From NCBI GenBank assembly GCA_965116825.1, contig OZ220736.1, positions 1,403,888-1,467,887 of the forward strand: DNA of 64,000 nucleotides, given 5' to 3'. Position numbers and translations under genes: made by a program. The DNA comes from Vicinamibacterales bacterium. Its GTDB lineage: Bacteria > Acidobacteriota > Vicinamibacteria > Vicinamibacterales > UBA8438. The notes beneath the pieces were generated by a model. That model saw only the letters and a list, made by a program, of their open reading frames with translations, did not search any database and was not told where the DNA came from. Positions 5,053 through 33,877 of the stretch are shown piece by piece; the stretch's first letter is position 1; each line of letters opens with the position of its first letter.

Positions 5053-5092
5053 CGGCCCGCCGCCCCGGCCGCCCCCCGCGTCGTCGCGCCGC

Positions 5093-9194: not shown

Positions 9195-9401
9195 CGTCGT
9201 GCCCTTTCGATGGTCCGCGCCGCCCCACCTCCCCACACTGGAGCGTCGCCTCGCCGATTACGCCGCCCCCGGATGCCGGTGCGACCCGTTCGAGCCCTTC
9301 ACGCTACGGTCCCCTTCCCGATGAACCAAGCGTAGCGCGGGTGGGTGACAGGTCAGGTCACACCCTCGGTGGTTTTTTCGGCGGCGCCATTCGTCGCCTT
9401 T

Positions 9402-10424
9402 ATGATTGATACGCAGCCGGGGAGGGCGTGGTTGCCACGCAACGCCGAAGTCATCCGCCAGTGGACCATCCTGCGCGAGCTCGAAGCCTCGCGCGGCGTC
9501 ACCATCCGCCGGCTCGCCGAGACGACCGGGGTGACGACGCGCACGATTCGCCGCGACCTCGCGGCGCTGCAGGAGGCGGGCTTCCCGCTCTACGACGTGG
9601 CGGACGACGCGACGAAGCGGTGGAGGCTCGACACCCGCCCGTTCAGACGCCTCGACGACACGGCGTTCACGCTCGCGGAGCTGTCGGCCCTCTACTTCAG
9701 CCGCACGCTCGTCGACTGCTTCGCCGTCCCGCCGTTCGGACAGGACCTGCAAAGCGCGTTCGCCAAGCTGGAAGCCGCGCTCGGCCCGCGCATGCGGCAG
9801 TTCCTCGATCGCCTGCCGGACGTCATCCAGGCCAAGGCCGCGCCCGCGCGCCGGCTCGACGACCGGCAGCAACGTGCGAACATCGGCAGGCTGCTCGACG
9901 CGCTGTTGCACCAGCGCCGGCTGGACATGGATTACCACTCCCGCTCCAGCCGGCGCGAGAAGTCATACCGGATCGATCCCTACCGGCTGGTGTACGCCGA
10001 GGGCGGACTCTACCTCTTCGCCTACGTGCCGCGCTACGAGCAGGTACGCACGTTCGCGGTCGAGCGGATACGGCGCCTGACCCCGCTGGACGAGACCTTC
10101 GATCCGGTCGAGCAACTGGCCGAGGCCGCCTTCCCGCACTCCCTGGGCATCCATCAGGGCGCCCCCGAGCGGGTCGCGCTGGAGTTCGCGCCCGATCTGG
10201 CCCCTTATGTGCGAGAACGCATCTGGCACCCCTCGCAGAAGGTGGAGCCGCGGGAGGACGGGTCGGTCGGGGTCACGATGGACGTCTGCAACGACGGTGC
10301 GCTCCGAAGCTGGATCCTGAGCTTCGGACCGGGCGTGCGGGTGACGGCGCCGACCGCGCTCGCGCGGCAAATCGCGAACGACCTGGAGCAAGCGCGCGCC
10401 CGCTACGGCGGCCAGGAGCCCTGA
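9402..10424 (+). CDS. WYL-domain transcriptional regulator (wHTH-WYL-WCX)
   Basis: N-terminal HTH (VTIRRLAETTGVTTRTIRRDLAALQEAGFPLY). WYL-type core (YRIDPYRLVYAEGGLYLFAYVPRYEQVRTFAVERI). Start chosen at MIDTQ, since the track ORF begins at 9345. It is divergent from the Zn-ribbon/addBA genes. Confidence 0.8.
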   Translation: MIDTQPGRAWLPRNAEVIRQWTILRELEASRGVTIRRLAETTGVTTRTIRRDLAALQEAGFPLYDVADDATKRWRLDTRPFRRLDDTAFTLAELSALYFSRTLVDCFAVPPFGQDLQSAFAKLEAALGPRMRQFLDRLPDVIQAKAAPARRLDDRQQRANIGRLLDALLHQRRLDMDYHSRSSRREKSYRIDPYRLVYAEGGLYLFAYVPRYEQVRTFAVERIRRLTPLDETFDPVEQLAEAAFPHSLGIHQGAPERVALEFAPDLAPYVRERIWHPSQKVEPREDGSVGVTMDVCNDGALRSWILSFGPGVRVTAPTALARQIANDLEQARARYGGQEP

Positions 10425-13770: not shown

Positions 13771-14160
13771 TCACGGAACGCACTCGATACCGGGCCTCAG
13801 CGCGAACGCGGTGTCGCAGGTCAGCGCCGTCTTCAGCCCTCGACGCTCCATGACAGCCAAATGAAGGCAATCGCGCGCCGAGAGCGCATGCTGCTCGTTG
13901 GCGATTGTGTGCGCGACGGAAACGTCTTCACGGGCGATCGGGAATACCGTGGTCACCAGGCCGTCGAGAAGCCGAAATGCATCGGCGATCGCGCCGCGGC
14001 GATTGACGGCAACGTAGCGGTGCACGATCTCCTGATACACCTCCGCACTCGTGACGTAGTCGCTGGCGGCGTGCGAGTGGAGAAACTCCGCGATCCGGTC
14101 CCGGTTGGGGTGGGGCGCGCCCACCAGGTACATCGGCACGTTGGAGTCAACGAAGATCAC
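13771..14160 (-). CDS. vapC: PIN-domain toxin VapC
   Basis: GTG at 14160 gives VIFVDSNVPMYLVG... The PIN acidic residues are present (D in FVDSN, SAEVYQEI, SARDCLH, TCDTAF). It overlaps the upstream antitoxin stop by 14 nt. Confidence 0.75.
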   Translation of the reverse strand: MIFVDSNVPMYLVGAPHPNRDRIAEFLHSHAASDYVTSAEVYQEIVHRYVAVNRRGAIADAFRLLDGLVTTVFPIAREDVSVAHTIANEQHALSARDCLHLAVMERRGLKTALTCDTAFALRPGIECVP

Positions 14161-14395
14161 GGCCGCGCTCGATGTCGGCGAGCATCTCGTCGATGTCGCC
14201 GGTGGGATGACCGCAGCGCAGGGCGCGATCGAGCGCCTCCAGCCGGCTGGCCGGGCTCGGACCAGCCTGGCTGTCCCGCGCCGCACGCAGCGCTCGCCGC
14301 GCCCATTCGCTCACGGTCAAGCCGGCGCGCCGGGCGACTTGGCGCAACGACGCCACCTCGGCTGCGGACATGACGATCTGCAGGCGCGTACTCAT
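14147..14395 (-). CDS. vapB: ribbon-helix-helix antitoxin (VapB-like)
   Basis: MSTRLQIVMSAAEVASLRQVARRAGLTVSEWARRALRAA is a typical RHH N-terminus. Alternative ATGs at 14401 and 14413 lie in the ATGAGTA repeats. Confidence 0.65.
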   Translation of the reverse strand: MSTRLQIVMSAAEVASLRQVARRAGLTVSEWARRALRAARDSQAGPSPASRLEALDRALRCGHPTGDIDEMLADIERGRDLR

Positions 14396-14580: not shown

Positions 14581-15870
14581 ATGCGCATCAACAGGCTGGA
14601 TATCAACAACTTTCGGTGCTTCGACGAGCGCTCGTTCACCTTTCACGAACGGTTCACCCTGCTGGTCGGCGCCAACGCCACCGGCAAGACTTCCGTCCTC
14701 GACGCGCTGGCGGTCGCCTTGGGGGCGGCGTTGATCCCGGTGCCTCACGCGTTGAGCGGCTCAATCCACCATCGGGACGTCCGTCGCACATATCAGCAGA
14801 TCGGCGAGACCGGACACTTCCGGGAACACTATCCGGCCCGCATCGAAGCGCATGGCTCGATCGAGAAACACAGCGTCATCTGGACGCGTGCCTTGAGGTC
14901 GGCGAAATCGCGGACCACGCGTGGAGGATCGCGAGCGATCCGCGAGGCAATGAACCAACTCGTACAGGGGAGCGCCAGCCACGACGACGTACTGTTGCCG
15001 TACATCGGCTACTACGGAACGGGTCGGCTTTGGCGAGAGCAGAGACTGCTCTCCGAGGGCGGCATCGATCCGGCCAGACGAAGCTCTCGCTACGTCGGAT
15101 ACCAGAACTGCCTTACCCCGAGCTCGTCGGCTCGACACCTCTCGGCCTGGGTCAAGCGCCTCGCCCTCATCGAGGCTCGGAGAGGCCCCCTCGCAACTCT
15201 CCAGGCCGTCCTTCGTGCTATTGCCGATTGCGTCGAAGAAGCTGTCTCCGCCTATTTCGATTTCGAGGAGGACGATATCGTCGTCCAGTTCGAGACCGAC
15301 CGGTTTCCGTTTCGTTCACTGAGCGATGGCCAACGCAACATGGCCGCCACCGCCGCCGACATCGCGATGCGCTGCGCACAACTCAACCCGCAACTCAAGA
15401 ACCGCGCGCGCCTCGAAACACCGGGCGTAGTCCTGATTGACGAGGTCGATCTGCACCTCCATCCTCGGCGGCAGCGCACCGTCGTTGGAGACATGACCAG
15501 AACTTTCCCCAGGCTCCAGTTCGTCGCAACCAGCCATTCGCCGTTCATCGTCCAGTCGGTAAGCGATGGCGGGGTGATCAACCTCGACAGAGAGGGCTCC
15601 GAACCGGAGACACCGCACGACCAGAGCGTCGAGGACGTCGCCGAGAACATCATGGGCGTCGATCAACCGCAACGAAGCAAGCGCTTCCAGGAGATGATGA
15701 AAGCGGCGGCAGAGTACTACCGACTTATCGAGGGCGCCACCGGAGAGACCGATCCCCGGGAAGTTCAGGCGTTGCGCGACCGGCTCGATCGGCTCGAGGA
15801 ACCCTTCGCCAACAACCCCGCCTACGTTGCGTTTCTTCGTTTGCAACGCGCGGCGAGGAATCTTCGATGA
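14581..15870 (+). CDS. ptuA: AAA/ABC-type ATPase, Septu PtuA-like (COG3950-like)
   Basis: N-terminus MRINRLDINNFRCFDE..LLVGANATGKTSVLDAL (Walker A). Signature SDGQRNM. Walker B VVLIDEVDLHLHP. It is followed by a TIGR02646-like HNH gene. Confidence 0.75.
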   Translation: MRINRLDINNFRCFDERSFTFHERFTLLVGANATGKTSVLDALAVALGAALIPVPHALSGSIHHRDVRRTYQQIGETGHFREHYPARIEAHGSIEKHSVIWTRALRSAKSRTTRGGSRAIREAMNQLVQGSASHDDVLLPYIGYYGTGRLWREQRLLSEGGIDPARRSSRYVGYQNCLTPSSSARHLSAWVKRLALIEARRGPLATLQAVLRAIADCVEEAVSAYFDFEEDDIVVQFETDRFPFRSLSDGQRNMAATAADIAMRCAQLNPQLKNRARLETPGVVLIDEVDLHLHPRRQRTVVGDMTRTFPRLQFVATSHSPFIVQSVSDGGVINLDREGSEPETPHDQSVEDVAENIMGVDQPQRSKRFQEMMKAAAEYYRLIEGATGETDPREVQALRDRLDRLEEPFANNPAYVAFLRLQRAARNLR

Positions 15871-18688: not shown

Positions 18689-18785
18689 TGAGCCTTGGTT
18701 GGGCGGCCAGCGGAGCCGCGGCCGACACGTGACGGGCTACACTGTCAGGAGACTCGGGGAACCGGTCAGACCGAAGGAAGACGCC

Positions 18786-19550: not shown

Positions 19551-19645
19551 GCCGACTCTTGCCTCGACTGCGGCCCGGAGCCGTTTCGATGTTGGCCCCG
19601 ATTCGGGGCGCGGTGCAGCGTTCGGGTCGCCGCAACGCGGTCGAC

Positions 19646-20641
19646 TCAGTCCGCTTTCGACCGCACACGCTGCCCCAGCGGTGTCAGCCGGTACTTCTGA
19701 TTCCTGGCGCTGGGTGCGTCGGGACGGGTCATCTCCAGGTACCCGCCCTGCAACGCGGGCAACAGGTACCGCTGCCGTAGCGACTTGCGGTCGCGGAGCC
19801 CGAGCGCGTGCAGGATTTCCCGCAGCGACATCTCGCCGTCCAGCACGGACAGCAGGCGCGCGACTTGGGGGGTGACCTGCGGGGGTTCCTGGGGGGTCCG
19901 CACGGCTGCAAGAATCACCTCCAGCATGAAGGCGACGAAAGCCGTGTTCTCGCCGGCCGCCGAGCTCTGCCGGATGGCCTCGTAGTACTCGCTCTGGCGG
20001 GCACGAACGAGGCTCTCGACGGGTACGTGCGCGAACAGGACCTTCCAGCGGGTCAGGATCAGCGTCTGCCAGAGCCGGCCCAGGCGTCCGTTGCCGTCCT
20101 CGAAGGGATGGATGAACTCGAACTCGTAGTGGAAGACCGAGCTCGTGACGAGCGGATGGTCGGCAGTGCTTCCGAGCCACGACAGCAGGTCGCCCATGAG
20201 CCGCGGCACCTGCCCGGCGGGCGGGCCGACGTGATGGACCCGATCCTGCCCCATCACGGCCGCGCCGCCGCGACGATAGCGGCCCGGCGCGTCCAACAGA
20301 GCGGTCATCAGGATCTCGTGTGCGGCCAGCAGGTCGCTTTCGCTGGTCGGGTTCCACTGCTCGTATCGATCGTAGGCCTGGATGGCGTTCCGGGCTTCCT
20401 GAACGTCCCGCAAGGGAGCAACGACCGGCTTGCCGTCGAGAATCGTCGAGATCTGCTCCTCGCTGAGAATATTGCCCTCGATGGCCAGCGAGCCCTGGAT
20501 CGTGCGGATGCGGTTGATGCGGCGCAGACGCAGGTCCCGCGAGAGACCGGCCGCCTCCGCACGCCCGACCGCTTCGGCGATCTGCGCGACCCGGGTCAGG
20601 ATGTCCGGAGTGATCCTGTACGGTGGCGGCGCTTCGCTCAT
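19646..20641 (-). CDS. Fic/DOC family protein with C-terminal winged helix
   Basis: Canonical Fic motif HPFEDGNGRLGRLW. C-terminal wHTH-like tail (LREILHALGL...QKYRLTPLG). Confidence 0.9.
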   Translation of the reverse strand: MSEAPPPYRITPDILTRVAQIAEAVGRAEAAGLSRDLRLRRINRIRTIQGSLAIEGNILSEEQISTILDGKPVVAPLRDVQEARNAIQAYDRYEQWNPTSESDLLAAHEILMTALLDAPGRYRRGGAAVMGQDRVHHVGPPAGQVPRLMGDLLSWLGSTADHPLVTSSVFHYEFEFIHPFEDGNGRLGRLWQTLILTRWKVLFAHVPVESLVRARQSEYYEAIRQSSAAGENTAFVAFMLEVILAAVRTPQEPPQVTPQVARLLSVLDGEMSLREILHALGLRDRKSLRQRYLLPALQGGYLEMTRPDAPSARNQKYRLTPLGQRVRSKAD

Positions 20642-20755
20642 TGCGTTCCCGGCTGACTCTGGCTCCGATCCCTTCGACTCCAGCCTCGACTACGGCCCTG
20701 ACTCCGACCTCGTCTGCGGCCCTGACTCCGGGCCCGAGAGGATGCCGCGCGGCGT

Positions 20756-23700
20756 TCAGGCCGCCGTCACGTCGTAGAACGGCGACGGCACGGTCGGGTA
20801 GGCGCGGTAGACGTGCGCGAACACGGCCTCGGTCGTAGTCGTCACGTCCTCGTCGGAATAGGCGCCAGCGGGCAGGCCCGTCTCGTCCCGGTAGAGGAAG
20901 TCGTGGATGGCGACCTTGACCGCGCTCTGGGTCGCCTCCTTCTCGCGCCACTGGTCGACCCGGAGCCTCTCCGCCTTGAGCGTCTGCAGCAGCTCCTTCG
21001 CGACGGTCTTGATGCGCCGGATGTCGGCCTTGTCCAGGTCCGGCTTCTTCAGCAGGTCGAAGATTGCCAGGGACTCCTCGTCCAGCCCCTCTCGGAGTGC
21101 GCGGTTCTCCTCTTCCTCGAGTTGCTCGAAGAACTTGAGGAGCTCCTCGAAAGTGCGCTCGATGGTCACCCGGTCCTTCTCGCGGTTGTAGTCCGCGACG
21201 ATGCGCTCGTAGTAGTGCTGCTGGAAGTCGGTCCGCAACGGATTGCGGGCCAGCAGGCGCCGGAGTCGCTCTTCCACGGTGTGCTTGAGCGCCTGCACCG
21301 CCGTCCGCTGGTTCACGCCGCGAACGTTGATGCATGCCTTGAACTTCTTGAACACCTCCCGGCACAGCACCTCGAACCGCTTGCGGGTCTCGTCGTTCTC
21401 GTTCGCGACCTCCTTGCAGGCCACGATAGCGGCGTTGCGCGCAAAGCCCGCCTTGCCGATGACGTCGTCAAGCGGCGCCCCGCCGCCGTGGAGAAAGCTC
21501 CTCACCATGGCGATCGCCTCGGCCAGGTCGGCGAGCAGCTCCTCGTCCGGTCTCGCCGGGTCGATCTCTCCGCCCGCTCCTCCTTGTCCGCCGGACGGCG
21601 TGCCGGCGAACGTCGCCAGCGCCTTGCGCAGGTGCTTGAGGACGCCGCAGTAGTCGACGATCAGGCCGTTGTTCTTGCCCTCGTTGACCCGGTTGGCGCG
21701 GGCGATGGCCTGCATCAGCGTGTGCGCCTTGAGCGGCTTGTCCAAGTAGAGGGTAGAAAGGCTGGGCACGTCGAAGCCGGTCAGCCACATGGCGCAGACG
21801 ACGGCGATGCGGAACGGGTGCTCCTGCTCCTTGAACGCGTCGTCGACGGCCATGCGCTGCAGGTTCCGGAACCGCGGCTTCGCGCGCATCTCTGCCGGCA
21901 GGTCCATGCCTTCCTTGATGATCCGCCGGTGCGGGATGATATCCAGGTCCCAGCGGCGGAACTTCTCCACCTCGCCCTGCTCTTCGCTCACCACGACCGC
22001 CGTGCGGGTGTCGCGCATCCAGTCGATCCGCCGCCGCAGGTAGATCGCCTCCTGCTCGCCGGGCGCCTTCGCGTGCTCCGCCTCCAGCTCCTCGATGCGC
22101 TCGGCCCAGTAACGCTCGATCAGCGTGTGCATCCGCACGCACGTCAGCTTGTCGATGCAGACCAGCATCGCCTTGCCGGTCTCCCACGCCGCCGAGTAGT
22201 GGCGCACGAAATCGCGGGCCACCTGGTCGAGACGCTTCTCGGCGGTGATCACGTGGTAGTCGCGCTTGAGCTCCCGCTCCAGACGCTGTGCGACGTCGAT
22301 GTCATCGGTCTCCAACTCTTCCAGCTTGTCGGCGATGCGTTCGTTCAGGTCGTCGATGGCCACGCCCAGATCGTCGCCGCGGGCGTCGTAGTAGAGCGGC
22401 ACCGTCGCGCCGTCCTCCACCGCCCGCTGAAAGTCGTAGGTGGAGACGTAGTCGCCGAACACCTTGCGCGTGATCTCGTCGTCCGTGAACAGCGGCGTGC
22501 CGGTGAAGCCGATGTAGCCGGCGTTGGGCAGGGCATTGCGCATGTTGAGGGCAAGCGTGCCGTACTGCGTGCGGTGCGCCTCGTCGCTGATGACGATGAC
22601 GTCGTCGCGCTGCGTATAGCCAGTCTCGGGATCCACGTCCTGGTTGAACTTCTGGATCAGCGAGAAAACGTGCGACTTGTGCTCGGCCAGCAGGCGGCCC
22701 AGGTGCTCTCCGCTCGATGCGCGGCACGGGTCCCGGTCGTGGTCCACCACGCCGCATCCGGCGAAGGTCTTGTATATCTGCGTGTCGAGGTCGTCGCGGT
22801 CGGTCAGCACCAGGAACGTGAAGTTGCCGCCCAGCTTCCGGCGCACCTTGCGGGTGAACAGCACCATCGAGTAGCTCTTGCCGGCCCCCTGGGTATGCCA
22901 GAAGACCCCGAGCTTCCCCGCCCGCTCCTTCCGCTCGCGCACCGCTTCCACCGCGCGGTTCACTCCCAGGAACTGGTGGTTGCGGGCCAGGATCTTCCGC
23001 GTCTCGCCGGACGACTCGTCGAAGAGGATGAAGTTCTCGACGAAGTCCAGGAAGTTGCGCTTGTCGCAGACGCCCTTGAGCAGCGTCTCCATGTCCACCG
23101 CGCCCGGCTCCTCCTCTGCCAGCCGCTTCCACTCGTGGAAGTGCCCCCACCGGCTCGTGATGGAGCCGATCTTGGCCTTCTCGCCGTTGGCGAACATCAC
23201 CACCGCGTTATGGTGGAAGAGGTGCGGGACGGTGTCGCGGTAGTCGGCGTAGTTCTTCTCGAAGGCCGCCTTCAGGTCGCGATGAATGTTCTTGCACTCG
23301 ATGAACAGCAGCGGCAGCCCGTTGACGAACCCGACGATGTCCGGCCGGCGCCGATAGAGGTCGCCCCGCACCCACATCTCGCGGACGCAGAGGAAGTGGT
23401 TCTTGTCGGGGTCGTCGAAGTCGAGCACGCGCAGGCGCCGCCGGGTCGGCCGGCCCCTGTCGTCGCGGTAGGTGACCTCGACGCCGTCGCGCAGCAGGTC
23501 GGCCTTCTCACGATTGGCGGCGACGATGGTCTGTGACCCGGTCGTCGCCGTGATCCGCCGTACCGCCTCTTGGTAGGCGTCGTCCGGCAGGCCTCGGTTC
23601 AGTTCCCGCAGTTTCTGCCGCAGAAGGCGCACCAGCACCGCCTCGCGGTCCGACTCGCGACCCAGCAGGCCGCCACCATCGAAGTCCTCCCGGTTGTGCG

Positions 23701-23791
23701 CGTAGATCGACTCCCAACCGAGCTGCTCTTCCAGGTAGTCGGCCGTGGTCTGCTGGACGAGGGTGTCCTCAGTGTAGGGGGAGGGAGTCAT
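20756..23791 (-). CDS. hsdR: Type I restriction enzyme R subunit
   Basis: 1011 aa. Contains an N-terminal nuclease region. SF2 motifs (FWHTQGAGKSYSM, VISDEAHRTQYG). Typical HsdR C-terminal domain. Confidence 0.9.
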   Translation of the reverse strand: MTPSPYTEDTLVQQTTADYLEEQLGWESIYAHNREDFDGGGLLGRESDREAVLVRLLRQKLRELNRGLPDDAYQEAVRRITATTGSQTIVAANREKADLLRDGVEVTYRDDRGRPTRRRLRVLDFDDPDKNHFLCVREMWVRGDLYRRRPDIVGFVNGLPLLFIECKNIHRDLKAAFEKNYADYRDTVPHLFHHNAVVMFANGEKAKIGSITSRWGHFHEWKRLAEEEPGAVDMETLLKGVCDKRNFLDFVENFILFDESSGETRKILARNHQFLGVNRAVEAVRERKERAGKLGVFWHTQGAGKSYSMVLFTRKVRRKLGGNFTFLVLTDRDDLDTQIYKTFAGCGVVDHDRDPCRASSGEHLGRLLAEHKSHVFSLIQKFNQDVDPETGYTQRDDVIVISDEAHRTQYGTLALNMRNALPNAGYIGFTGTPLFTDDEITRKVFGDYVSTYDFQRAVEDGATVPLYYDARGDDLGVAIDDLNERIADKLEELETDDIDVAQRLERELKRDYHVITAEKRLDQVARDFVRHYSAAWETGKAMLVCIDKLTCVRMHTLIERYWAERIEELEAEHAKAPGEQEAIYLRRRIDWMRDTRTAVVVSEEQGEVEKFRRWDLDIIPHRRIIKEGMDLPAEMRAKPRFRNLQRMAVDDAFKEQEHPFRIAVVCAMWLTGFDVPSLSTLYLDKPLKAHTLMQAIARANRVNEGKNNGLIVDYCGVLKHLRKALATFAGTPSGGQGGAGGEIDPARPDEELLADLAEAIAMVRSFLHGGGAPLDDVIGKAGFARNAAIVACKEVANENDETRKRFEVLCREVFKKFKACINVRGVNQRTAVQALKHTVEERLRRLLARNPLRTDFQQHYYERIVADYNREKDRVTIERTFEELLKFFEQLEEEENRALREGLDEESLAIFDLLKKPDLDKADIRRIKTVAKELLQTLKAERLRVDQWREKEATQSAVKVAIHDFLYRDETGLPAGAYSDEDVTTTTEAVFAHVYRAYPTVPSPFYDVTAA

Positions 23792-23939
23792 GGCCAGCGG
23801 TTGACCTTCTGTTCGCTATGGGGCGCCCGCCGCAGATCGCGCTCGCCGGCTCTGGCGATCACGACGTCCTCCCCTTCCACGCCGCCTTCACCAACCACGA
23901 GAGCTGGGCCTTCGCTTCGTTCATGTTCACAATCGCCAT
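23788..23939 (-). pseudogene. Phd/YefM-like antitoxin N-terminal fragment, frameshifted in a G-run, stop overlapping the hsdR ATG
   Basis: The revcomp reads ATG GCG ATT GTG AAC ATG AAC GAA GCG AAG GCC CAG CTC TCG..., giving MAIVNMNEAKAQLSWLVKAAWKG. After a 1-nt slip in AAGGGGAGG it continues EDVVIARAGERDL...RWP* (tail of track ORF 23788..24093). Its TGA shares ATGA with the hsdR start. Confidence 0.45.
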
Positions 23940-24103
23940 GTTGTCCCGTTCCCGCCTTCCCGACCTGCTCGCCCAAGCCAAGGCTTGCATCGCTGGCCCG
24001 GGCCGTCAAGGAACGACCGGGCCATCGTCTCCGAGCGCAATGCCCGTCCGCAGGGCCGCCCGCCACACCGTCGACCGTTGTTCCGGTCACCATGACGTGC
24101 TAT

Positions 24104-24134
24104 CTTGTTGTCAACAACAAGTTGAATAGTCAAC
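24104..24134. promoter_or_regulatory. clustered inverted repeats (GTTG/CAAC half-sites) just upstream of the cassette's first gene
   Basis: CTTGTTGT-CA-ACAACAAG (24104-24121) and GTTGA-ATAG-TCAAC (24121-24134) sit in a locally AT-rich stretch. They end 2 nt before the ATG at 24137. Confidence 0.45.
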
Positions 24135-24136
24135 AG

Positions 24137-24628
24137 ATGACAGTACGGTACACACCCGGCCAGCTTCGTGACGCGGCAGCCGTGCCGCCGGAGACCTATC
24201 GCCACTGGAAGAAGGCCCTGGCGCCGCTACGCCGCGACACGCGGCAGAGCCCCTGTTTCACCGCGGGAGATCTGCTCGCCGTAGCTGTCGTACGCAGCAT
24301 GACCCGCGCGTTCATCCGCGTGGGCGCGCTTTCCGTGATCGCCGAGGAACTGTTCCGTCTATGCAGCGACACTTCCTGGCCGGTCCTCGAACGCAGCCGG
24401 ATGATCGTCGACCTCGTCAACCAGCGTATCGAGCTACAACCTGAGTCCGAAGACGTCGATATCGACTCCCCGGCGCTCGTCTGTCCGCTGAGACCTCTGG
24501 TCGGTCAGCTCCGCGATGCACTGCTGACCGACGGCGAACCGGATCAGCAGAGACTCAATCTCCCGCCGGTTCCGCTGCCATCAACAACCGCAGGGCATCG
24601 ACAGGCGGTGGCTCGTGGACGCCGTTGA
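24137..24628 (+). CDS. small putative DNA-binding protein (MerR/excisionase-type HTH-like N-terminus)
   Basis: MTVRYTPGQLRDAAAVPPETYRHWKK resembles an HTH_17/MerR-type N-terminus. This is the 3' part of track ORF 23570..24628. Its end overlaps the MTase GTG start by 14 nt. Confidence 0.5.
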   Translation: MTVRYTPGQLRDAAAVPPETYRHWKKALAPLRRDTRQSPCFTAGDLLAVAVVRSMTRAFIRVGALSVIAEELFRLCSDTSWPVLERSRMIVDLVNQRIELQPESEDVDIDSPALVCPLRPLVGQLRDALLTDGEPDQQRLNLPPVPLPSTTAGHRQAVARGRR

Positions 24629-27104
24629 CACCATCGCCGACGCCGTCCGCCACATCGGCTATCGGCGGGAAGCGATTGTCCGCGACTACGCGTTCGCGGA
24701 CGTACTCGATTCTGCGGATACGACGAGAACGGTCGCGCTCGCCGCCTTTACACAGACGCCGCCTTCGTACCGGTCGGCCGCGCTCGCCGTCGTCCCGGCC
24801 GGCTACGGGAGCACGTTGGATTGGGTCACGGCGCACCGTTCGCTTGGTGCTCCTCTCCTCTTCGTCATCGAAGGCGATCAGGTCACCTTGTGGCAGGTGC
24901 GCGGCGACGCGCCGCCCAGCGTTCTGGAACGCCTGCTCCTGAATGAGGTCCCGGGGCTGTTCGAGCGACACCAGGAGGAGTGGCGTCCCCAGGCCATTCA
25001 CCGCGCCAAGGCGATCGGCGCCGTCAACCGGGAGTACCAGCTCGACTTCGTGGACGTCGGTCTGATGCCCGCTCTCGAGGGCGAAGTGCACCTCAAGCTC
25101 GACCGGCTGCTGAACGACACGCTCACGGCATCGTCGCAGGCGCCGTGCGAGAATCGTCCCGACACTGCGGCGCTCTTCCGCGTCGTCTTCCGGCTGCTCG
25201 CCGCGAAGATCCTGCAGGACCGCCGCCACCCGTATGCGCAACAATGGCACGCGGCCGACATCGCGTCCGTCCTTCGCGCGATCGAATCCTATTACTCCCT
25301 ACCCGCGGTTCCAGGGACCGGCCCCCGAACCACGTCTCCCGCTTTTGGGGCCGCCTGGGACCGTCTCCGTGGCGGAATCAATTTCTGCAACATCTCATCC
25401 GACGACCTGGCCTTCGTGTACGAGAACACTCTCGTCACCAGCGAAACCAGAAAAGACCTGGGTACGCACCGCACCCCGCACCAGCTCGCCGAATATGCGG
25501 TCGCCCGACTGAATCTCGATCGTCACGACCCTCGCGACCTCCACATCTACGAGCCTTTCGCCGGCGCCGGCACGTTCCTCGTGTCCGCCTTGCGGCACAT
25601 GCGGGACCTGCTGCCGGTCGACTGGACCGACCAGGAACGCCATGCGTTTCTGGTGGATCGCCTCTCCGGAGACGAAACGGATCCCTTCGCCTGCGAAGTC
25701 GCCATGCTTTCCCTGATCCTGGCCGACTACCCGAACCAGAACGGCTGGCGCATCCGCCGATCCGACCTGTTCGAGAGCGACGTCTTGAAGTCCCGCGTGG
25801 AGAACGGCGGTATCGTCCTGTGCAACCCGCCGTTCGAGGATTTTTCGAACGATGACCGCTCACGTTACCCGCTAGCGAATGAGTTCGACTCCAAACCGAA
25901 AGCGGTGTTGAACGCCGCACTCGACGCCCACCCGCGCGCGCTTGCGTTCGTTCTGCCGCGTCCCTTCATTCTGGATCGGGAATTCGGCGCAGAACGGCGC
26001 AGAATCGAGGAACTCTACGGAGACATCGAGTTGGTCGCCTTGCCGGATCGAATCTTCGCGGCATCCAAGATCGAATCGGCTCTTCTGCTCGCTCGCGACC
26101 CGAGACCGCCGGCGCCCCCCGTCATCATCGTGCGCTCGACCGAAGTAGCCGACCACGACCGCATCACCTTCCTGAGAACCGGACAGACGACGGCCGAACG
26201 TCGTGTCGAGCGTGCCGTCGGCAATCCACCCGTCGGCAACCTCTGGATCCCTCCGCTACCTGATCTCTGGCACTACCTGGAGTCAGCGGCCCGCCTGAGC
26301 GACCACTTTGATATCCATCGGGGTATCGAGTGGAAATCCTCGCAGGGCGACGCCTGGAGCAATGAACCTCGGACCGGTTACAGACGGGGGCTGCACAATG
26401 CCCGGCGGACGCGACAATTCACGCTGCAGAATCCCGTGTTTCTCGATTGCCGGCGGGAGAGACTTCGGCGCGCGCTCGACCTGCCCTGGGATCGCGCCAA
26501 GCTTGTAGTAAACGCTGCTCGCTTAAGCCGAAAATCATGGCGGATTGCGGCAATGCTCGATCGCAACGGGTTCGTATGCTCGCAGCAGTTCTTTGGACTG
26601 TGGCAGAAACAAAAGCTAACGGATGCACAGCTTCTGACATTCGCCGCGGTACTGAACGGCCCGGTTGCGAATGCTTTCCTCGCTGCTCACTCTCCAGCGA
26701 AGAGGATTCGTATTTCCGCCATCAAGCAGATTCCGATTCCATCGACGTTGCCGTTCCATGTGGAAAAACTGGTGGCGGAATATGTACGGCGCCTTCAGGA
26801 CTCAAGAAGGTCGGATGCCACCGAAGATCAAATGCAGAACCTCCTGACCCTGATCGACGCCGCAGTACTCGCGTCCTACGACTTGTCGGCACGACTCGAA
26901 CACGAACTGCTCGAGTTCTTTCGCGGTTCGGACCGACCGGTGGCACACGCGTGGCGACACTGGGACGAACACAATCCTGCTCCCGGTCTCACTCTGGCCG
27001 AGCGCGTGTCCGGGCGGTTCCATCCACACGGTTCGTGGATTCTCGACGTCTTTCAGCCGCTGCCAGCCGATGAAGCGGAGCTTCTCCGAACCTACGGAGC
27101 GTGA
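24615..27104 (+). CDS. gamma-class N6-adenine DNA methyltransferase with TaqI_C-like target-recognition domain and an unassigned ~270-aa N-terminal domain
   Basis: Motif I IYEPFAGAGTFLV. Motif IV IVLCNPPFEDF. C-terminal TRD-like region (LSDHFDIHRGIEWKS...). I could recognise no nuclease or helicase motifs. Confidence 0.85.
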   Translation: MDAVDTIADAVRHIGYRREAIVRDYAFADVLDSADTTRTVALAAFTQTPPSYRSAALAVVPAGYGSTLDWVTAHRSLGAPLLFVIEGDQVTLWQVRGDAPPSVLERLLLNEVPGLFERHQEEWRPQAIHRAKAIGAVNREYQLDFVDVGLMPALEGEVHLKLDRLLNDTLTASSQAPCENRPDTAALFRVVFRLLAAKILQDRRHPYAQQWHAADIASVLRAIESYYSLPAVPGTGPRTTSPAFGAAWDRLRGGINFCNISSDDLAFVYENTLVTSETRKDLGTHRTPHQLAEYAVARLNLDRHDPRDLHIYEPFAGAGTFLVSALRHMRDLLPVDWTDQERHAFLVDRLSGDETDPFACEVAMLSLILADYPNQNGWRIRRSDLFESDVLKSRVENGGIVLCNPPFEDFSNDDRSRYPLANEFDSKPKAVLNAALDAHPRALAFVLPRPFILDREFGAERRRIEELYGDIELVALPDRIFAASKIESALLLARDPRPPAPPVIIVRSTEVADHDRITFLRTGQTTAERRVERAVGNPPVGNLWIPPLPDLWHYLESAARLSDHFDIHRGIEWKSSQGDAWSNEPRTGYRRGLHNARRTRQFTLQNPVFLDCRRERLRRALDLPWDRAKLVVNAARLSRKSWRIAAMLDRNGFVCSQQFFGLWQKQKLTDAQLLTFAAVLNGPVANAFLAAHSPAKRIRISAIKQIPIPSTLPFHVEKLVAEYVRRLQDSRRSDATEDQMQNLLTLIDAAVLASYDLSARLEHELLEFFRGSDRPVAHAWRHWDEHNPAPGLTLAERVSGRFHPHGSWILDVFQPLPADEAELLRTYGA

Positions 27105-27110
27105 TCGGCC

Positions 27111-27614
27111 GTGTACGGGTACATTTTCGACACCAGCGCACTCTCTCCGTTGCTTGATCCCGCGCATTCCAGGCACGATGACGTGCGAGCGGCCATTGAC
27201 GCACTCGATCCGCGCTCGACGAAGTTCGTATCGGCAATAGTCGTGGCAGAGTTCGGCTACGGTATTCGCCTGGCCGAAACCGTTGCCGGATCTGCATCAC
27301 CCCACCTCCGACGGACGCTGACGAGAGCGCGCGAGTATGCAGTACTGGAAGTGACAAGACATACGTCCGCCGCATACGCCGAATTGAAGGCAAACCTTGC
27401 CGGAAAATACTTGACCAAAGCGCTGACGAAGAATCGGCCTCGCTGGGTGGAAGATTGGATCGACAGAGCCACCGGAAAAAAGCTCCAGATCGACGAGAAC
27501 GACTTGTGGATCTGCGCGCAGGCGAAGGAGCGCAACTTGACTGTCGTCACCGCCGACCGCCGTATGAATCGCGTTTCCAATGCCGACCGCGACGTTCGTC
27601 TTCACATGGTCTGA
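27111..27614 (+). CDS. PIN-domain (VapC-like) nuclease with an internal insertion
   Basis: GTG start 6 nt after the MTase stop. YIFDTSAL, VVAEFGYG, IDENDLWICAQA and VVTADRR supply the D-E-D-D acidic set. An extra segment of about 30 aa (LAGKYLTKALTKNRPRWVEDWIDRATGKK) is present. No antitoxin-sized ORF lies upstream. Confidence 0.75.
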   Translation: MYGYIFDTSALSPLLDPAHSRHDDVRAAIDALDPRSTKFVSAIVVAEFGYGIRLAETVAGSASPHLRRTLTRAREYAVLEVTRHTSAAYAELKANLAGKYLTKALTKNRPRWVEDWIDRATGKKLQIDENDLWICAQAKERNLTVVTADRRMNRVSNADRDVRLHMV

Positions 27615-27665
27615 GCCTCGTCGGCTACTGTTCATATGGCCACCACGCAGCGTACCGGGAGGACT

Positions 27666-28231
27666 TCATTTCTTAACGCCCTCGAGACCGGCCAGCAGTC
27701 GCCGCCCCGCTGCCGTCAAGCGGTACCGCTGCCTGCCGCTGCGCGGCTTGTCGGGAATCGTGAGTTCGAGTAGGTTCATCGCAAGGTGCCTCTCCATACC
27801 CTTCTTGAAGTTGCCGGTCCTGGTGGAGTACCCGCTCGCCGCGAGAAGCTCCCGCCCGGTGGCCGGCCGTTCCACACAGGCACTGAGCACGGTCGTCAGC
27901 CCACTGGACTGCCGATTTGCACCTGCCGTCCCGGGGAAGTCAGGCGGTATCTCTGATGGCGGCTTGGCGCACCCAGCCGAGCGGCCATCAGGATATCGTG
28001 AGCGTTCGCCTCGCTGCTCGGGTTCCGCTGTTCATATGCATCGCAAGCCTTGATGGCGTTCCGCACCCCTTGAACGTTCGTCAGCAGAGCGGCGACCGGC
28101 TTGCCGTCGAGAATCGCCGAGGCCTGGTGCCCGCTGAGGAGGTTGTCCTCAATGTCAAGCGAGTACGGCGGTTGCTGAATCGCGGAACCGGCGGCACCAA
28201 CGCGAACCGCTCCATGCTCAGGCATTCGCAT
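27666..28231 (-). pseudogene. Fic-family remnant lacking the catalytic Fido core
   Basis: Track ORF 27896..28231 aligns by eye with residues ~55-130 of the intact Fic (LDIEDNLLSGHQASAILDGKPVAALLTNVQGVRNAIKACDAYEQRNP versus LAIEGNILSEEQISTILDGKPVVAPLRDVQEARNAIQAYDRYEQWNP). Track ORF 27666..27890 matches the wHTH tail (GRQRYRLTAAG). No HPFxxGNGR motif is present. Confidence 0.75.
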
Positions 28232-29348
28232 CCCCGGACCCGTTCAGCTCCTTCTCGATCTCGTCGACGCTCGGCAGACTGCCCTTCAGCTCCTCCGGCA
28301 GCGACTCGACCAGGCGGGTCTCCCATTCGGCGACGCCCATCGGCTTGTCGAAGCCGCGCAGGGCGTACTCCACCACCAGCCGATCCTTGCTCTTGCAGAG
28401 CAGCAGGCCGATGGTCGGCTTGTCGTCGGCGTGGCGCAGCAGGTCGTCGACGGCGGAGAGGTACAGGTTCATCTGCCCGACGAAGGCGGCGTTGAACGGC
28501 ACGGCCTTGAGCTCGACGACCACGTAGCGGCGTAGCTTCAGGTGGTAGAAGAGCAGATCGGCGTAGAAATCCTGATCGCCGACCTCCAGCAGAACCTGCC
28601 GGCCGACGAACGCGAAGCCGGCGCCGAGCTCCAGGAGGAAGCGCTGCACGTGGTCTACGAGAGCCTGCTCGATCTCCCGTTCGGTTCGGGAGGCGGTAGC
28701 GCCCAGGAAATCGAACAGGTATGGGTCCTTGAACACGTGGGTCGCCAAGTCGGAGTCTTCGGGCGGCAGGGTGGCCGGAAAGTTGGTGATCGCCTTGCCG
28801 GTTCGCTCGTGCAGCCGCGACTCGATCTGCACTGCCAGAACGTTACGGCTCCAGCCTTCTTCATGTGCTTTCCTGACGTACCACAACCGGGTCTCGGGGT
28901 CCCGAAGCTTGTTCAGCAGGATCACGTGGTGCGCCCAGGGAATTTCTGCAACAACCTGTTGCACAATTCGGCGGTCCGGCCAGGCGGCGGCGAACGCGCG
29001 CATGTACCGCAGGTTGCGCGGCGACAGCCCCCGCATGTCAGAGAAGGCTTCTCGGAGATCGTCGGAAAGCCGATCGATTACCCTGGCGCCCCAACCCTCC
29101 CGGCCCTGGCGGTCGAGAATCGCTCGCCCTATGTCCCAGTACAGCAGCACGAGCCCCGCGTTGGCCGCCAGCACTACACGCAGGCGTTCCTTGCGAATGC
29201 GCTCCTTGATCTCGGCGAAGGCGGCCGTATAGTCCGCCGGCAGCCGGGCGCGCGACGGCCCGACCGGGAAGGACGCGTCCTCCCGCTGCCGGCCCCGGGA
29301 GCGCCGGTCGTCCGTGTCACTCGTTCGCGATCTGGTTGGCGCCGTCAT
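28218..29348 (-). CDS. YhcG/DUF1016-type PD-(D/E)XK nuclease
   Basis: Typical DUF1016 sequence (LLYWDIGRAI, LSPRNLRYMRAFA, YADLLFYHLKLRRYVVVELK). Its ATG overlaps the hsdM stop (ATGA). Confidence 0.85.
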   Translation of the reverse strand: MTAPTRSRTSDTDDRRSRGRQREDASFPVGPSRARLPADYTAAFAEIKERIRKERLRVVLAANAGLVLLYWDIGRAILDRQGREGWGARVIDRLSDDLREAFSDMRGLSPRNLRYMRAFAAAWPDRRIVQQVVAEIPWAHHVILLNKLRDPETRLWYVRKAHEEGWSRNVLAVQIESRLHERTGKAITNFPATLPPEDSDLATHVFKDPYLFDFLGATASRTEREIEQALVDHVQRFLLELGAGFAFVGRQVLLEVGDQDFYADLLFYHLKLRRYVVVELKAVPFNAAFVGQMNLYLSAVDDLLRHADDKPTIGLLLCKSKDRLVVEYALRGFDKPMGVAEWETRLVESLPEELKGSLPSVDEIEKELNGSGDANA

Positions 29349-31456
29349 ATCCCCAGCTTCTCGAAGTTCTCCTGGATTCGCGCCGCCAGGACGGCCGCCT
29401 CGGCGTTCAGGTCCGCGAGCTCGGCGTGGATCTCGCGCATCGCGGTCGCGAAGTCGAAGTCCTCGTCCTCCTCTTCAGGGGCGACGCCGACGTAGCGGCC
29501 GGGCGTCAGGCTCCAGTCGTTGGCTTCGATCTCGGTGCGGTCCACGAGCTTGACCAGCCCTTCCACGTCGCGCAGCTCGCCGTCGGGGAAGCACTCGGTG
29601 AGCCAGTGGGCCTGACGCCAGAAGTAGCGGACCTTCCCGAGCTGTTCGACGGCTTCCCGCCGCGCCTCGTCGGCGGCCTTGCGGGCGCGGGTGACGGCGC
29701 GGCCATTCCAGGCGTCGCCGGATTTGGCGCCGCACTCCTCGCAGGTCTCGATCAAGCGGGCTGCAGCCTTGTAGAGCTGATCGGCCTGCGCCGTGAGGTC
29801 ACGGCTGCTCTCGGCCAGCGGAGCGAACCGGTCCACCAGGTTGTTCAGACCGGCGTTCGTGTCGGGCGTTCGCTCCCACTGTGGAGCCGCCTTGTCGATG
29901 CGGACGCGGAAACGCTCGACCTCGCGCCGGAACCGTTTCTGCTCCCGGCCAAGTTCCGCGAGATGCGCGGCGGACGCACCGGTCTTCGGCAGAGTCTTGA
30001 GGAACGGAGACAGTTCGTCGCTGAGCGGGGCCATCGCGTCGGCGAACTCCGGAAGCGGCCGGCCGCTCTCGCCGTCGTCGCTCTCCCACTCGAAGCACCA
30101 ACCTCCCTCCTCGACGACGCGCCACAGATGCTGGAAGGCGATCTCGCGAAATCGCTCCGGCTCGCCGCGGTAGAGCCGGACGATGGCCAGCAGGTTCTGC
30201 TGCTGCTCGGGGCTGAAGTCGTAGATCTTGCGCGTCACCTTGCGGTAGACGTTGCGCGCGTCGATCATCAGCACCTTGTCGCGGTGCGCCTCCGGCTTGG
30301 CGCGGTTCAGGAACCACAGCTCGCACGGCACGGTGCGGGTGTAGAAGAAGTTCGAGCGGATGGCGATCATCACGTCGACGTCGCCCGTCTCCACCAGCTT
30401 GCGCCGCACCGCGGCCTCGCCGCCGCCGGCGCTCGACGCCTGCGAGGACATGACGAAGCCGGCCCGGCCCGTCTCGTTCAGGTAGCTGTAGAAGTAGCTG
30501 ATCCAGACGTAGTTGCCGTTGCCGACCCGCTGCTTCTTGTTGACGCCGGGCAGACCGAACGGCAGGCGCGGATCGGTCCGCACCTTGTCCGCGTCGATCT
30601 CGTCGACGTTGAACGGCGGGTTGGCCATCACGTAGTCGGCCCGGCCGAGCAGCTCGTGCGGGTCGTCGTAGTAGGTGATGGCCTGCCGGATGTCGCCTTC
30701 GAGCCCGTGGACGGCGAGGTTCATCTTCGCCAGGCGGATGGTGGTGTCGTTCTTTTCGGCGCCGCGGAAGGTGAGCCGCTCGGTCGGACTCCCGCCGTGT
30801 TCCTCCACGGTGCGCGCGCTCTGGACGAACATGCCGCCGGAACCGCAGGCCGGGTCGAGCACCGTGCCGCTGTCGGGATCGAGCACGTGGGCGATCAGCG
30901 AGACTAGCGAGACCGGCGTGAAGAACTCGCCACCGTCGTGCGCCTTCTGGTCGGCGAACTTCGTGAGGAAGTACTCGTAGATGCGCCCGAAGACGTCGCC
31001 GGAGACCTGCTTGAGCTCGTCGGGGTTCAGCTTGCGCAGGAGGTCGCCGAGGACCTCGTTGTCCAGCGCCTGGTACTCGCTCTTGGGCAGGACCCCGCGC
31101 AGGCTGTCGTAGTCCTCCTCGATGGACTCCATGGCGGCGATGATGGCCGCCGCGCGATCCTCGCCGTCCGGCAGGGCGACGAGGTGATGGAACTGCGCGT
31201 GCGGCCGCAGGAAGAGGGCGTTCTTCTGTGAGAAATCCTCCCTGGTGAGTGCCCGCGTCCTGCCGCCTCGCGTGGGCAGACCGGCCGCGATCCCGTCCTT
31301 GACGGCCAGGTAGCGGCTGTAGGCGTGGCGCAGGAATACGAGCCCCATGACCGGCAGGAAGTACTCGTTGCTGGCGTGCTCCGAGTTGGCGCGCAGCGTG
31401 TCGGCGGCGCTCCAGAGGCGCCGTTCGATGGCGTCGATGTGCTCGAGCTGAGGCAT
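29345..31456 (-). CDS. hsdM: Type I R-M DNA methyltransferase subunit (long form)
   Basis: Start chosen at MPQLEHIDAIERRLWSAADTLR, the HsdM N-terminal domain. Motif I LDPACGSGGMFV. Motif IV VMANPPFNV. C-terminal DWSLTPGRYVG motif. Confidence 0.9.
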   Translation of the reverse strand: MPQLEHIDAIERRLWSAADTLRANSEHASNEYFLPVMGLVFLRHAYSRYLAVKDGIAAGLPTRGGRTRALTREDFSQKNALFLRPHAQFHHLVALPDGEDRAAAIIAAMESIEEDYDSLRGVLPKSEYQALDNEVLGDLLRKLNPDELKQVSGDVFGRIYEYFLTKFADQKAHDGGEFFTPVSLVSLIAHVLDPDSGTVLDPACGSGGMFVQSARTVEEHGGSPTERLTFRGAEKNDTTIRLAKMNLAVHGLEGDIRQAITYYDDPHELLGRADYVMANPPFNVDEIDADKVRTDPRLPFGLPGVNKKQRVGNGNYVWISYFYSYLNETGRAGFVMSSQASSAGGGEAAVRRKLVETGDVDVMIAIRSNFFYTRTVPCELWFLNRAKPEAHRDKVLMIDARNVYRKVTRKIYDFSPEQQQNLLAIVRLYRGEPERFREIAFQHLWRVVEEGGWCFEWESDDGESGRPLPEFADAMAPLSDELSPFLKTLPKTGASAAHLAELGREQKRFRREVERFRVRIDKAAPQWERTPDTNAGLNNLVDRFAPLAESSRDLTAQADQLYKAAARLIETCEECGAKSGDAWNGRAVTRARKAADEARREAVEQLGKVRYFWRQAHWLTECFPDGELRDVEGLVKLVDRTEIEANDWSLTPGRYVGVAPEEEDEDFDFATAMREIHAELADLNAEAAVLAARIQENFEKLGI

Positions 31457-31470
31457 GTCCGTCCGCAAGT

Positions 31471-33846: not shown

Positions 33847-33877
33847 GGCCCTCCCCCGGTCCTTCGACTGCCACCGC

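What the first reader, a model, noticed from the sequence alone, without database searches (positions are those of the whole stretch)
20756..31456. Type I R-M locus with hsdR and hsdM but no hsdS, split by the opposite-strand cassette
Seen:
- hsdM (29345..31456) and hsdR (20756..23791) are both intact on the minus strand but about 5.5 kb apart.
- Between them lie only a YhcG nuclease, a Fic remnant and the plus-strand cassette.
- No ORF in any frame shows the two-TRD/coiled-coil HsdS pattern.

Established: Type I enzymes need HsdS for DNA recognition by both the M2S1 and R2M2S1 complexes.

Inference, three alternatives:
- hsdS was lost when the cassette arrived, making this a dead or decaying system.
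- hsdS is supplied in trans.
- The 829-aa MTase-TRD protein, divergently transcribed from the same ~350-bp region as hsdR, now provides specificity. Motor/nuclease plus MTase-TRD would be the component set of single-chain Type ISP enzymes, here on two polypeptides.
Basis: partly seen in the sequence, partly recalled or inferred. Interest (0 to 1): 0.6.

Follow-up and report, generated by a model that had tools for sequence, protein, structure and literature searches.

The report
Decaying Type I restriction locus without hsdS
This is an ordinary Type I restriction-modification locus in a sponge-associated acidobacterium that lost its specificity gene (hsdS) through a local deletion and is probably inactive. 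The methylase cassette inside it is a separate, self-contained module, not a replacement for hsdS.

Summary
hsdR (20756..23791) and hsdM (29345..31456) are real, and no hsdS or hsdS remnant exists anywhere in the 64-kb window.

The loss is exceptional. Of 73 related loci, 71 carry hsdS after hsdM. A 5.5-kb gap between hsdM and hsdR is normal for this family.

Sister loci show what happened. One (L100) reads hsdM-YhcG-Fic-hsdS-AlbA2-[same cassette]-hsdR. The window matches that layout minus about 2.7 kb running from inside Fic to near the 3' end of AlbA2. The cassette therefore arrived before hsdS was lost and did not cause the loss.

hsdR is not fully intact. It has a 219-bp in-frame deletion (73 aa) in its C-terminal domain.

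Independent short-read contigs from several sponge samples span both deletions, so they are not assembly errors.

The cassette (small protein, 829-aa Type IIG-like methylase with TRD, PIN) is found as a unit in at least 14 loci (13 distinct) with no hsdR nearby.

Verdict:
- The locus is a decaying Type I system.
- The split Type ISP idea is not supported.
- hsdS supplied in trans could not be tested.

The parts
20756..23791 (-). hsdR, 1011 aa. Nuclease (PD...ECK), Walker A (GAGKS) and DEAH motifs are present. It carries an in-frame 73-aa deletion in the C-terminal domain.
   Evidence: Pfam and NCBIfam hits. Motifs read from the translation. Alignment with L100, L084, L003, L008 and L043.
21310..21311 (-). 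Deletion joint inside hsdR. Relatives have 219-223 bp here. It removes about the middle third of the T1RH-like_C domain.
   Evidence: blastn breakpoints. In L100, T1RH-like_C covers profile positions 3-304; in the window only 166-304. Independent contigs span the joint.
23792..24091 (.). Divergent intergenic region between hsdR and the first cassette gene.
   Evidence: ORF coordinates. No flanking terminal repeats were found.
24092..24622 (+). Small cassette protein, 162-177 aa (ATG at 24092 or 24137). No known domain.
   Evidence: No Pfam, NCBIfam or PADLOC hit. Found upstream of the methylase in all 16 cassette loci checked.
24615..27104 (+). 829-aa gamma-class N6-adenine methylase with a C-terminal TRD-like domain. 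Type IIG/IIL-like architecture.
   Evidence: Pfam N6_Mtase. AF2 model with pLDDT 73. Best fold matches are BpuSI 3s1s and DrdV 7lo5. More than 1500 homologues of about 830 aa.
27111..27614 (+). PIN-domain (VapC-like) protein, 167 aa. Third cassette gene.
   Evidence: Pfam PIN, E = 4e-16. Found after the methylase wherever enough downstream sequence was held.
27666..27892 (-). 3' remnant of an AlbA2/Schlafen-HATPase_c_4 gene. Only the Fic-like_C wHTH and the stop codon remain.
   Evidence: Pfam Fic-like_C, E = 8.7e-9. 81% nucleotide identity to the AlbA2 3' end of L001, in the same position next to PIN.
27896..28231 (-). 5' fragment of a Fic gene (111-aa ORF), paralogous to SoFic at 19646..20641.
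   Evidence: tblastn to SoFic residues 51-124, 59% identity. blastn to SoFic of L002, L100 and L097.
27863..27960 (.). Interval holding the joint of the deletion or replacement that removed the 3' part of Fic, all of hsdS and most of AlbA2.
   Evidence: Comparison with L100 and L001. Contigs in two runs show 'skips 2728, 1455 letters between' relative to L001.
28218..29348 (-). YhcG/DUF1016 PD-(D/E)XK nuclease (PADLOC candidate PDC-S02). Overlaps the hsdM stop by 4 bp.
   Evidence: Pfam and PADLOC hits. The same gene sits after hsdM in about 10 related loci.
29345..31456 (-). hsdM, 703 aa. Motifs I (DPACGSGGMF) and IV (NPPF) are present. The long C-terminal extension is the norm for this family.
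   Evidence: Among the 80 best related loci, homologues that are not cut by a contig end align over the full 703 aa at 63-91% identity across many phyla.

Best explanation
The locus is a vertically inherited Type I R-M system of a known family (long 703-aa HsdM, HindI-like HsdR). It lies in a defence island of a sponge-associated Vicinamibacterales-like acidobacterium and is being eroded.

Inferred order of events:
1. The ancestral operon was hsdM-(YhcG-Fic)-hsdS-AlbA2-hsdR.
2. A three-gene module (small protein, Type IIG-like methylase-TRD, PIN) inserted between AlbA2 and hsdR on the other strand.
3. In the window's lineage a deletion or recombinational replacement of about 2.7 kb removed the 3' part of Fic, all of hsdS and most of AlbA2.
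4. hsdR also lost 73 codons, in frame, from its C-terminal helical domain. The order of steps 3 and 4 is unknown.

Without HsdS, neither M2S1 nor R2M2S1 can recognise DNA. The remaining hsdM and hsdR are therefore most likely non-functional relics that have not yet accumulated stop codons. The cassette works on its own.

Shown: the gene content, both deletions, their presence in independent samples, and the autonomy of the cassette.
Inferred: the order of events, the loss of function, and the importance of the deleted HsdR segment.
For: - No hsdS in the window.
- 71 of 73 related loci have hsdS after hsdM. In 59 of 60 loci with both hsdM and hsdR an hsdS ORF was counted between them; in the 60th (L063) the hsdS ORF starts upstream of the hsdM stop and missed the positional filter.
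- L100 has hsdM(704)-YhcG-Fic-hsdS(404, two Methylase_S stretches)-AlbA2(520)-cassette-hsdR(1087). Window 21311-27624 aligns continuously with it at 92%.
- The window keeps only a Fic 5' fragment abutting an AlbA2 3' remnant.
- The 219-bp in-frame hsdR deletion is absent from the relatives that reach that part of the gene, including the closest, L084. It removes part of T1RH-like_C.
- The C-terminal helical domain of HsdR is thought to contact the methylase and takes part in all HsdR activities (PMC5248579). HsdS is required for both methylation and restriction (PMC11411939).
- Other sister loci show independent damage: hsdM frameshifts in L097, L098 and L099; an interrupted hsdR in L098; a different in-frame hsdR deletion in L097; a split hsdS in L001 and L017.
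- Single contigs from independent runs span 23069-29535 and 20500-21716 with 0-1 mismatches. No L001-like hsdS appears at the locus depth.
Against: - hsdM and hsdR are still open, with catalytic motifs intact.
- dN/dS against L100 is 0.15 for hsdR and 0.24 for hsdM, no higher than neighbouring genes. Relaxed selection is therefore not visible, and the loss may be recent.
- The S-less haplotype is the only form seen in several samples, which is also compatible with retained function.
- The rest of the genome could not be searched for a cognate hsdS.
- The role of the deleted HsdR segment is extrapolated from EcoR124I, which belongs to a different Type I family.
- Frameshifts in sister loci come from long-read metagenome assemblies and may be sequencing errors.
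Confidence: 0.8

Rival explanations
1. hsdS is supplied in trans. Another locus in the same genome encodes an HsdS of the same family, and it assembles with this HsdM and HsdR, so the system is still active.
For: - hsdM and hsdR are open with intact motifs and low dN/dS.
- Sponge metagenomes hold many related Type I loci. Extra contigs at 95-99% identity lie over hsdR and hsdM segments.
- Metatranscriptome contigs cover part of hsdM at low level.
Against: - No hsdS or second Type I gene occurs in 64 kb.
- In this family hsdS is encoded in cis in 71 of 73 loci.
- HsdR has lost part of its C-terminal domain.
- No L001-like hsdS sequence appears at the depth of the dominant genome in run X3. That test would only detect a similar allele.
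Confidence: 0.1
2. The 829-aa methylase-TRD protein replaces HsdM/HsdS as the specificity partner of HsdR. Together they would form a two-polypeptide analogue of Type ISP enzymes.
For: - The cassette is transcribed divergently from hsdR across a 300-345 bp region.
- The methylase has MTase and TRD-like domains.
- The cassette is intact in all six sister loci, while the hsd genes decay.
Against: - The cassette is a conserved three-gene unit in at least 14 loci (13 distinct), including Reyranella, Rhodomicrobium and Sphingobium, with no hsdR or hsdM in the sequence held.
- It coexists with a normal hsdS in L097-L100.
- In L007 only a remnant of the methylase is left while hsdM, hsdS and hsdR are complete.
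- The protein matches BpuSI and DrdV, enzymes that need no motor subunit, over its full length.
- The HsdR docking domain is damaged.
- The link with hsdR is explained by one ancestral insertion, since the flanks are shared at 92% identity.
Confidence: 0.03
3. The missing hsdS and the short hsdR are assembly artefacts: a collapsed or chimeric contig.
For: The window probably comes from a metagenome-assembled genome.
Against: - The junction region is held with 97-100% of sampled words in ten runs (100% in eight) from six studies and five organism labels, 2018-2024.
- Single Logan contigs span 23815-28359 (X1), 23069-29535 (X3) and 23741-29267 (X8). Others span the hsdR joint (X3 20500-21716, X7 21140-21656). 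All have 0-1 mismatches.
Confidence: 0.01

Closest known systems
Canonical three-subunit Type I R-M systems (EcoKI, EcoR124I; PADLOC MTase_I PDLC03035 / REase_I PDLC03040 subfamily)
   Same: HsdR has a PD-(D/E)XK nuclease, an SF2 motor and a helical C-terminal domain. HsdM has HsdM_N and a gamma-class N6-adenine MTase. Gene order and strand match 60 related loci.
   Different: There is no HsdS. HsdR lacks 73 aa of the C-terminal domain. The locus is therefore predicted to be inactive.
Type I loci with embedded defence genes (V. cholerae VPI-2 T1RM with TgvAB, PMC11411939; EcoprrI with PrrC, from my own knowledge)
   Same: Unrelated defence-type genes (YhcG/PDC-S02, Fic, AlbA2/Schlafen ATPase, the methylase-PIN cassette) sit between hsdM and hsdR. 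The spacing of 1.2-9.3 kb is typical of this family.
   Different: In the described cases hsdS is kept and the Type I system is active. Here the embedded region has suffered a deletion that took hsdS with it.
Type ISP single-chain enzymes (LlaGI, LlaBIII)
   Same: The combined component list of HsdR plus the 829-aa protein would be nuclease, SF2 motor, MTase and TRD.
   Different: Here there are two divergently transcribed genes of separate origin. Their co-occurrence is not conserved. The 829-aa protein has its own N-terminal domain and its own partners (small protein, PIN).
Type IIG/IIL enzymes BpuSI (3s1s), DrdV (7lo5), MmeI. This comparison applies to the 829-aa cassette protein only.
   Same: Full-length fold match: N-terminal alpha/beta domain, helical linker, gamma-class MTase with NPPF, and a C-terminal TRD. 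There is also a weak MmeI_Mtase Pfam hit.
   Different: No invariant D...ExK nuclease motif occurs in the N-terminal domain. The TRD-like region is almost as conserved as the MTase domain (58% against 70%). The gene is always flanked by a small protein and a PIN nuclease.

Membership tests
Functional Type I R-M system | HsdR with a PD-(D/E)XK nuclease and SF2 helicase motifs | tested here: met
   HSDR_N, SWI2_SNF2 and ResIII domains, and TIGR00348 at 491 bits. PD...ECK, GAGKS and DEAH motifs read in the translation.
Functional Type I R-M system | Complete C-terminal helical domain of HsdR, for assembly with the methylase | tested here: not met
   A 73-aa in-frame deletion. T1RH-like_C matches profile positions 166-304 only, against 3-304 in L100.
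Functional Type I R-M system | HsdM with AdoMet-binding motif I and catalytic NPPF/Y motif IV | tested here: met
   DPACGSGGMF and NPPF are present. N6_Mtase at 253 bits and PDLC03035 at 832 bits.
Functional Type I R-M system | HsdS with two TRDs and conserved helices, encoded with hsdM | tested here: not met
   No hit with the cognate HsdS profile, tblastn or Pfam anywhere in the window. Present in 71 of 73 related loci.
Functional Type I R-M system | Bipartite m6A methylation motif in the genome | not testable with these tools
   No kinetic or nanopore modification data can be read here.
Type ISP (or a split version of it) | Nuclease-motor and MTase-TRD on one polypeptide, or at least a conserved gene pair | tested here: not met
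   The genes are separate and divergent. The cassette occurs without hsdR in at least 14 loci, 13 of them distinct.
Type ISP (or a split version of it) | Physical coupling between the motor and the MTase-TRD | not testable with these tools
   No multimer prediction or experiment was available.
Type IIG/IIL R-M enzyme (829-aa protein) | Gamma-class N6A MTase followed by a TRD in one chain | tested here: met
   Motif I EPFAGAGTF and motif IV NPPF. Full-length Foldseek matches to BpuSI and DrdV, E = 1e-15 to 1e-16, though TM is only about 0.3.
Type IIG/IIL R-M enzyme (829-aa protein) | N-terminal PD-(D/E)XK nuclease with catalytic D...(D/E)XK | tested here: inconclusive
   The N-terminal alpha/beta domain is modelled at pLDDT 75-88. 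No invariant E-x-K occurs among 26 homologues; the invariant residues are E19, D29, R38, Y52 and R53.

The most novel reading that the evidence does not exclude
The still-open hsdM and hsdR, the latter with a trimmed C-terminal domain, are kept because they work without a cis hsdS. They would use either a trans HsdS or the neighbouring Type IIG-like methylase-TRD as the target-recognition partner. The second option would be a naturally occurring two-chain analogue of Type ISP enzymes.
Probability: 0.05. Interest if true: 0.7.

Novelty: new member of a known kind. Interest (0 to 1): 0.25.

Why it matters
The main value is as a correction. An 'S-less Type I system' that looked like a possible new architecture turns out to be a normal locus caught in decay, with the ancestral state preserved in sister genomes.

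It also illustrates two more general points:
- Type I loci act as landing pads for other defence genes, and that embedded region is where structural damage occurs.
- The embedded methylase-PIN module outlives its host system.

That cassette, a conserved three-gene unit found in Acidobacteria and Alphaproteobacteria and absent from PADLOC and NCBIfam as a system, is the more interesting object for follow-up.

Tried and rejected
I used a home-made HsdS profile and tblastn instead. One run timed out.
- PDB sequence search with the 829-aa protein gave only a marginal HsdM hit. The fold search was informative.
- A search for terminal direct or inverted repeats flanking the cassette (23700-27760) found only short, chance-level matches, so the insertion mechanism is unknown.
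- The hsdR deletion joint has only 1-2 nt of microhomology.
L001 was used instead.
- I checked whether the long C-terminal extension of HsdM could stand in for HsdS. This was rejected: all relatives with the same extension still have a separate HsdS, and the HsdS profile does not hit hsdM.
- dN/dS against L100 does not show relaxed selection. A lineage-specific test was not attempted because the locus looks mosaic: YhcG and SoFic have dS of about 0.6, against 0.2-0.3 for their neighbours.
- Metatranscriptome contigs were too sparse to judge expression of hsdR and hsdM.
- A literature search for PDC-S02/YhcG gave only the 2005 fold assignment.


Full report
**1. What is there**

The window has high GC (about 68%). 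Pfam, NCBIfam and PADLOC confirm the following genes:
- hsdR at 20756..23791(-), 1011 aa, with HSDR_N, SWI2_SNF2/ResIII, T1R_D3 and T1RH-like_C domains (TIGR00348, 491 bits).
- hsdM at 29345..31456(-), 703 aa, with HsdM_N and N6_Mtase. It matches PADLOC MTase_I PDLC03035 over its full length (832 bits).
- YhcG/DUF1016 at 28218..29348(-), which is PADLOC candidate PDC-S02.

On the plus strand lie three cassette genes:
- a small protein with no known domain (24092 or 24137..24622);
- an 829-aa N6_Mtase protein (24615..27104);
- a PIN protein (27111..27614).

Catalytic motifs are readable in the translations. HsdR has PD...ECK, GAGKS and DEAH. HsdM has DPACGSGGMF and NPPF.

**2. Is hsdS really absent?**

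I fetched 80 loci encoding relatives of the 703-aa HsdM. They are 63-91% identical and, where not cut by a contig end, align over the full length, across many phyla.

- From these loci I collected the ORFs that follow hsdM. 76 ORFs match HsdS.
- I built a profile from the roughly 60 full-length ones and searched the six-frame translation of the whole window. There was no hit, even with all filters off (best E = 20). tblastn with each HsdS gave only noise.
- Pfam on 30 further GC3-selected ORFs, together with the ORFs of the hsd region, found no Methylase_S and no second Type I gene.

The absence is exceptional for this family:
- 71 of 73 related loci with enough downstream sequence have hsdS.
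- Of the 60 loci with both hsdM and hsdR, 59 were counted with hsdS between them. In the 60th (L063) the hsdS ORF starts upstream of the hsdM stop and missed the positional filter.

The 5.5-kb gap, by contrast, is not unusual. The median is 5.0 kb and the range 1.2-9.3 kb.

The long C-terminal extension of HsdM is a family trait. It does not substitute for HsdS.

**3. How hsdS was lost**

Homologues of the 829-aa protein led to sister loci. L100 reads:

2OG oxygenase - hsdM(704) - YhcG(384) - Fic(148) - hsdS(404, two Methylase_S stretches) - AlbA2/Schlafen-HATPase_c_4(520) - [PIN, methylase, small protein on the other strand] - hsdR(1087) - SoFic.

- Window 21311-27624 aligns continuously with L100 6704-13013 at 92%. 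Window 28205-33872 aligns with YhcG-hsdM-2OG.
- Between these blocks the window has only 580 bp where L100 has 3.3 kb.
- That 580 bp contains two pieces. One is a 111-aa Fic 5' fragment (27896..28231, 59% identical to SoFic residues 51-124). In another frame is a Fic-like_C wHTH with its stop codon (about 27666..27892; Pfam E = 8.7e-9).
- The second piece is 81% identical in DNA to the 3' end of the AlbA2 gene of L001, in the same position next to PIN.

One deletion, or a recombinational replacement, from inside Fic to near the end of AlbA2 therefore accounts for the missing hsdS.

The cassette sits at the same site, together with a full-length hsdS, in L097-L100 and with a split hsdS in L001. 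So the cassette arrived first and did not cause the loss.

**4. hsdR is also damaged**

- In the relatives that reach this part of hsdR, the alignment to the window breaks at 21310/21311, and each relative carries 219-223 extra bases there.
- The protein alignment shows a clean 73-aa gap after '...INVRGVN'.
- In L100, T1RH-like_C covers profile positions 3-304. In the window it covers only 166-304.
[quoted passage not shown] Applying this to a different Type I family is an inference.
- L097 has a different, independent in-frame deletion next to this one.

**5. Are the deletions real?**

- The junction region is held with 97-100% of sampled words in ten public runs (100% in eight) from six studies and five organism labels. 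Further runs that hold about half of the words, and the RNA runs, are labelled sponge metagenome.
- Single contigs span 23069-29535 (X3, about 242x), 23815-28359 (X1) and 23741-29267 (X8) with 0-1 mismatches. Contigs also span the hsdR joint.
- Laid on L001, the dominant contigs in X3 and X7 show 'skips 2728, 1455 letters between'. Depth over the L001 hsdS is about zero in X1 and X3.

**6. State of sister loci**

Damage is scattered across the sister loci:
- hsdM frameshifts in L097, L098 and L099;
- an insertion in hsdR in L098;
- a split hsdS in L001 and L017;
- AlbA2 frameshifts in L001 and L097.

Some of these may be long-read assembly errors. The cassette is intact in all six sister loci.

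dN/dS against L100 is 0.15 for hsdR and 0.24 for hsdM, similar to neighbouring genes. The loss may therefore be recent, and residual function cannot be excluded on this ground.

**7. The cassette and the 'split Type ISP' idea**

- The small+methylase+PIN trio is conserved as a unit in 16 further loci. Fourteen of these, 13 distinct (Reyranella, Rhodomicrobium, Sphingobium, Sphingomicrobium, Bryobacterales and others), have no hsdR or hsdM in the sequence held, which ranges from about 2 kb to 10 kb per side.
- In L007 only the C-terminal third of the methylase remains, next to complete hsdM, hsdS and hsdR.
- The AF2 model (pLDDT 73) matches Type IIG BpuSI and Type IIL DrdV over its full length. 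It also matches CamA, M.BseCI and BREX PglX.
- The TRD-like region is nearly as conserved as the MTase domain (58% against 70% mean pairwise identity). By comparison, HsdS proteins of sister loci are only about 33% identical.
- The cassette genes have lower GC3 (0.67-0.74) than hsdR (0.93), which points to a foreign origin.

Nothing links the methylase functionally to HsdR beyond one shared ancestral insertion.

**8. Verdict**

This is a known kind of system, a Type I R-M locus with embedded defence genes (PMC11411939), in a degenerate state. HsdS is required for both methylation and restriction (PMC11411939), so the locus is most likely inactive. A cognate hsdS elsewhere in the genome remains the only serious alternative, and it cannot be tested with a 64-kb window.

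Noticed in passing
window 24092-27614 (+): A small protein, an 829-aa Type IIG-like methylase-TRD and a PIN nuclease form a conserved three-gene unit in Acidobacteria and Alphaproteobacteria. More than 1500 methylase homologues are all about 830 aa long. The unit is not recognised as a system by PADLOC or NCBIfam. No nuclease motif is evident in the methylase N-terminal domain, so PIN may be the effector. It is a candidate new R-M-like, defence or toxin-antitoxin module. The small gene is the part with the most consistent metatranscriptome contigs.
   Followed up: partly
window 31471-33948 (-): An 825-aa protein whose only recognisable domain is 2OG-Fe(II) oxygenase (residues 157-242) lies directly upstream of hsdM. 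It is present in L100 and L001 but absent from L003 and L097, so it is another variable passenger of this island.
   Followed up: no
window 19646-20641 (-) and 27896-28231 (-): A full-length SoFic-type Fic protein (PADLOC SoFic, E = 5e-41) lies just downstream of hsdR. The Fic fragment inside the locus is its paralogue. YhcG and SoFic are much more diverged from L100 (dS about 0.6) than their neighbours (0.2-0.3), which suggests a mosaic origin by recombination.
   Followed up: partly
L097:6119-9175 (sister locus): HsdR of this sister genome has a different in-frame deletion of about 66 aa, immediately next to the window's deletion in the same C-terminal domain. Its hsdM appears frameshifted.
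   Followed up: partly
window 59370-61964 (-): A BrxL (BREX Lon-like protease) gene is present. The rest of a BREX system probably continues past the right end of the window.
   Followed up: no
window 13771-15870: A second PIN protein (13771..14286) and an AAA_15/AAA_21 (AbiEii/OLD-like) ATPase (14581..15870) extend the defence island to the left. AddAB-like helicase-nuclease genes (1216..8536) and a WYL regulator (9345..10424) lie further left.
   Followed up: no
window 18300-21365 (-): A 1021-aa ORF overlaps the hsdR 3' end and SoFic in another frame. It has no Pfam hit and is most likely a spurious open frame typical of high-GC DNA.
   Followed up: partly
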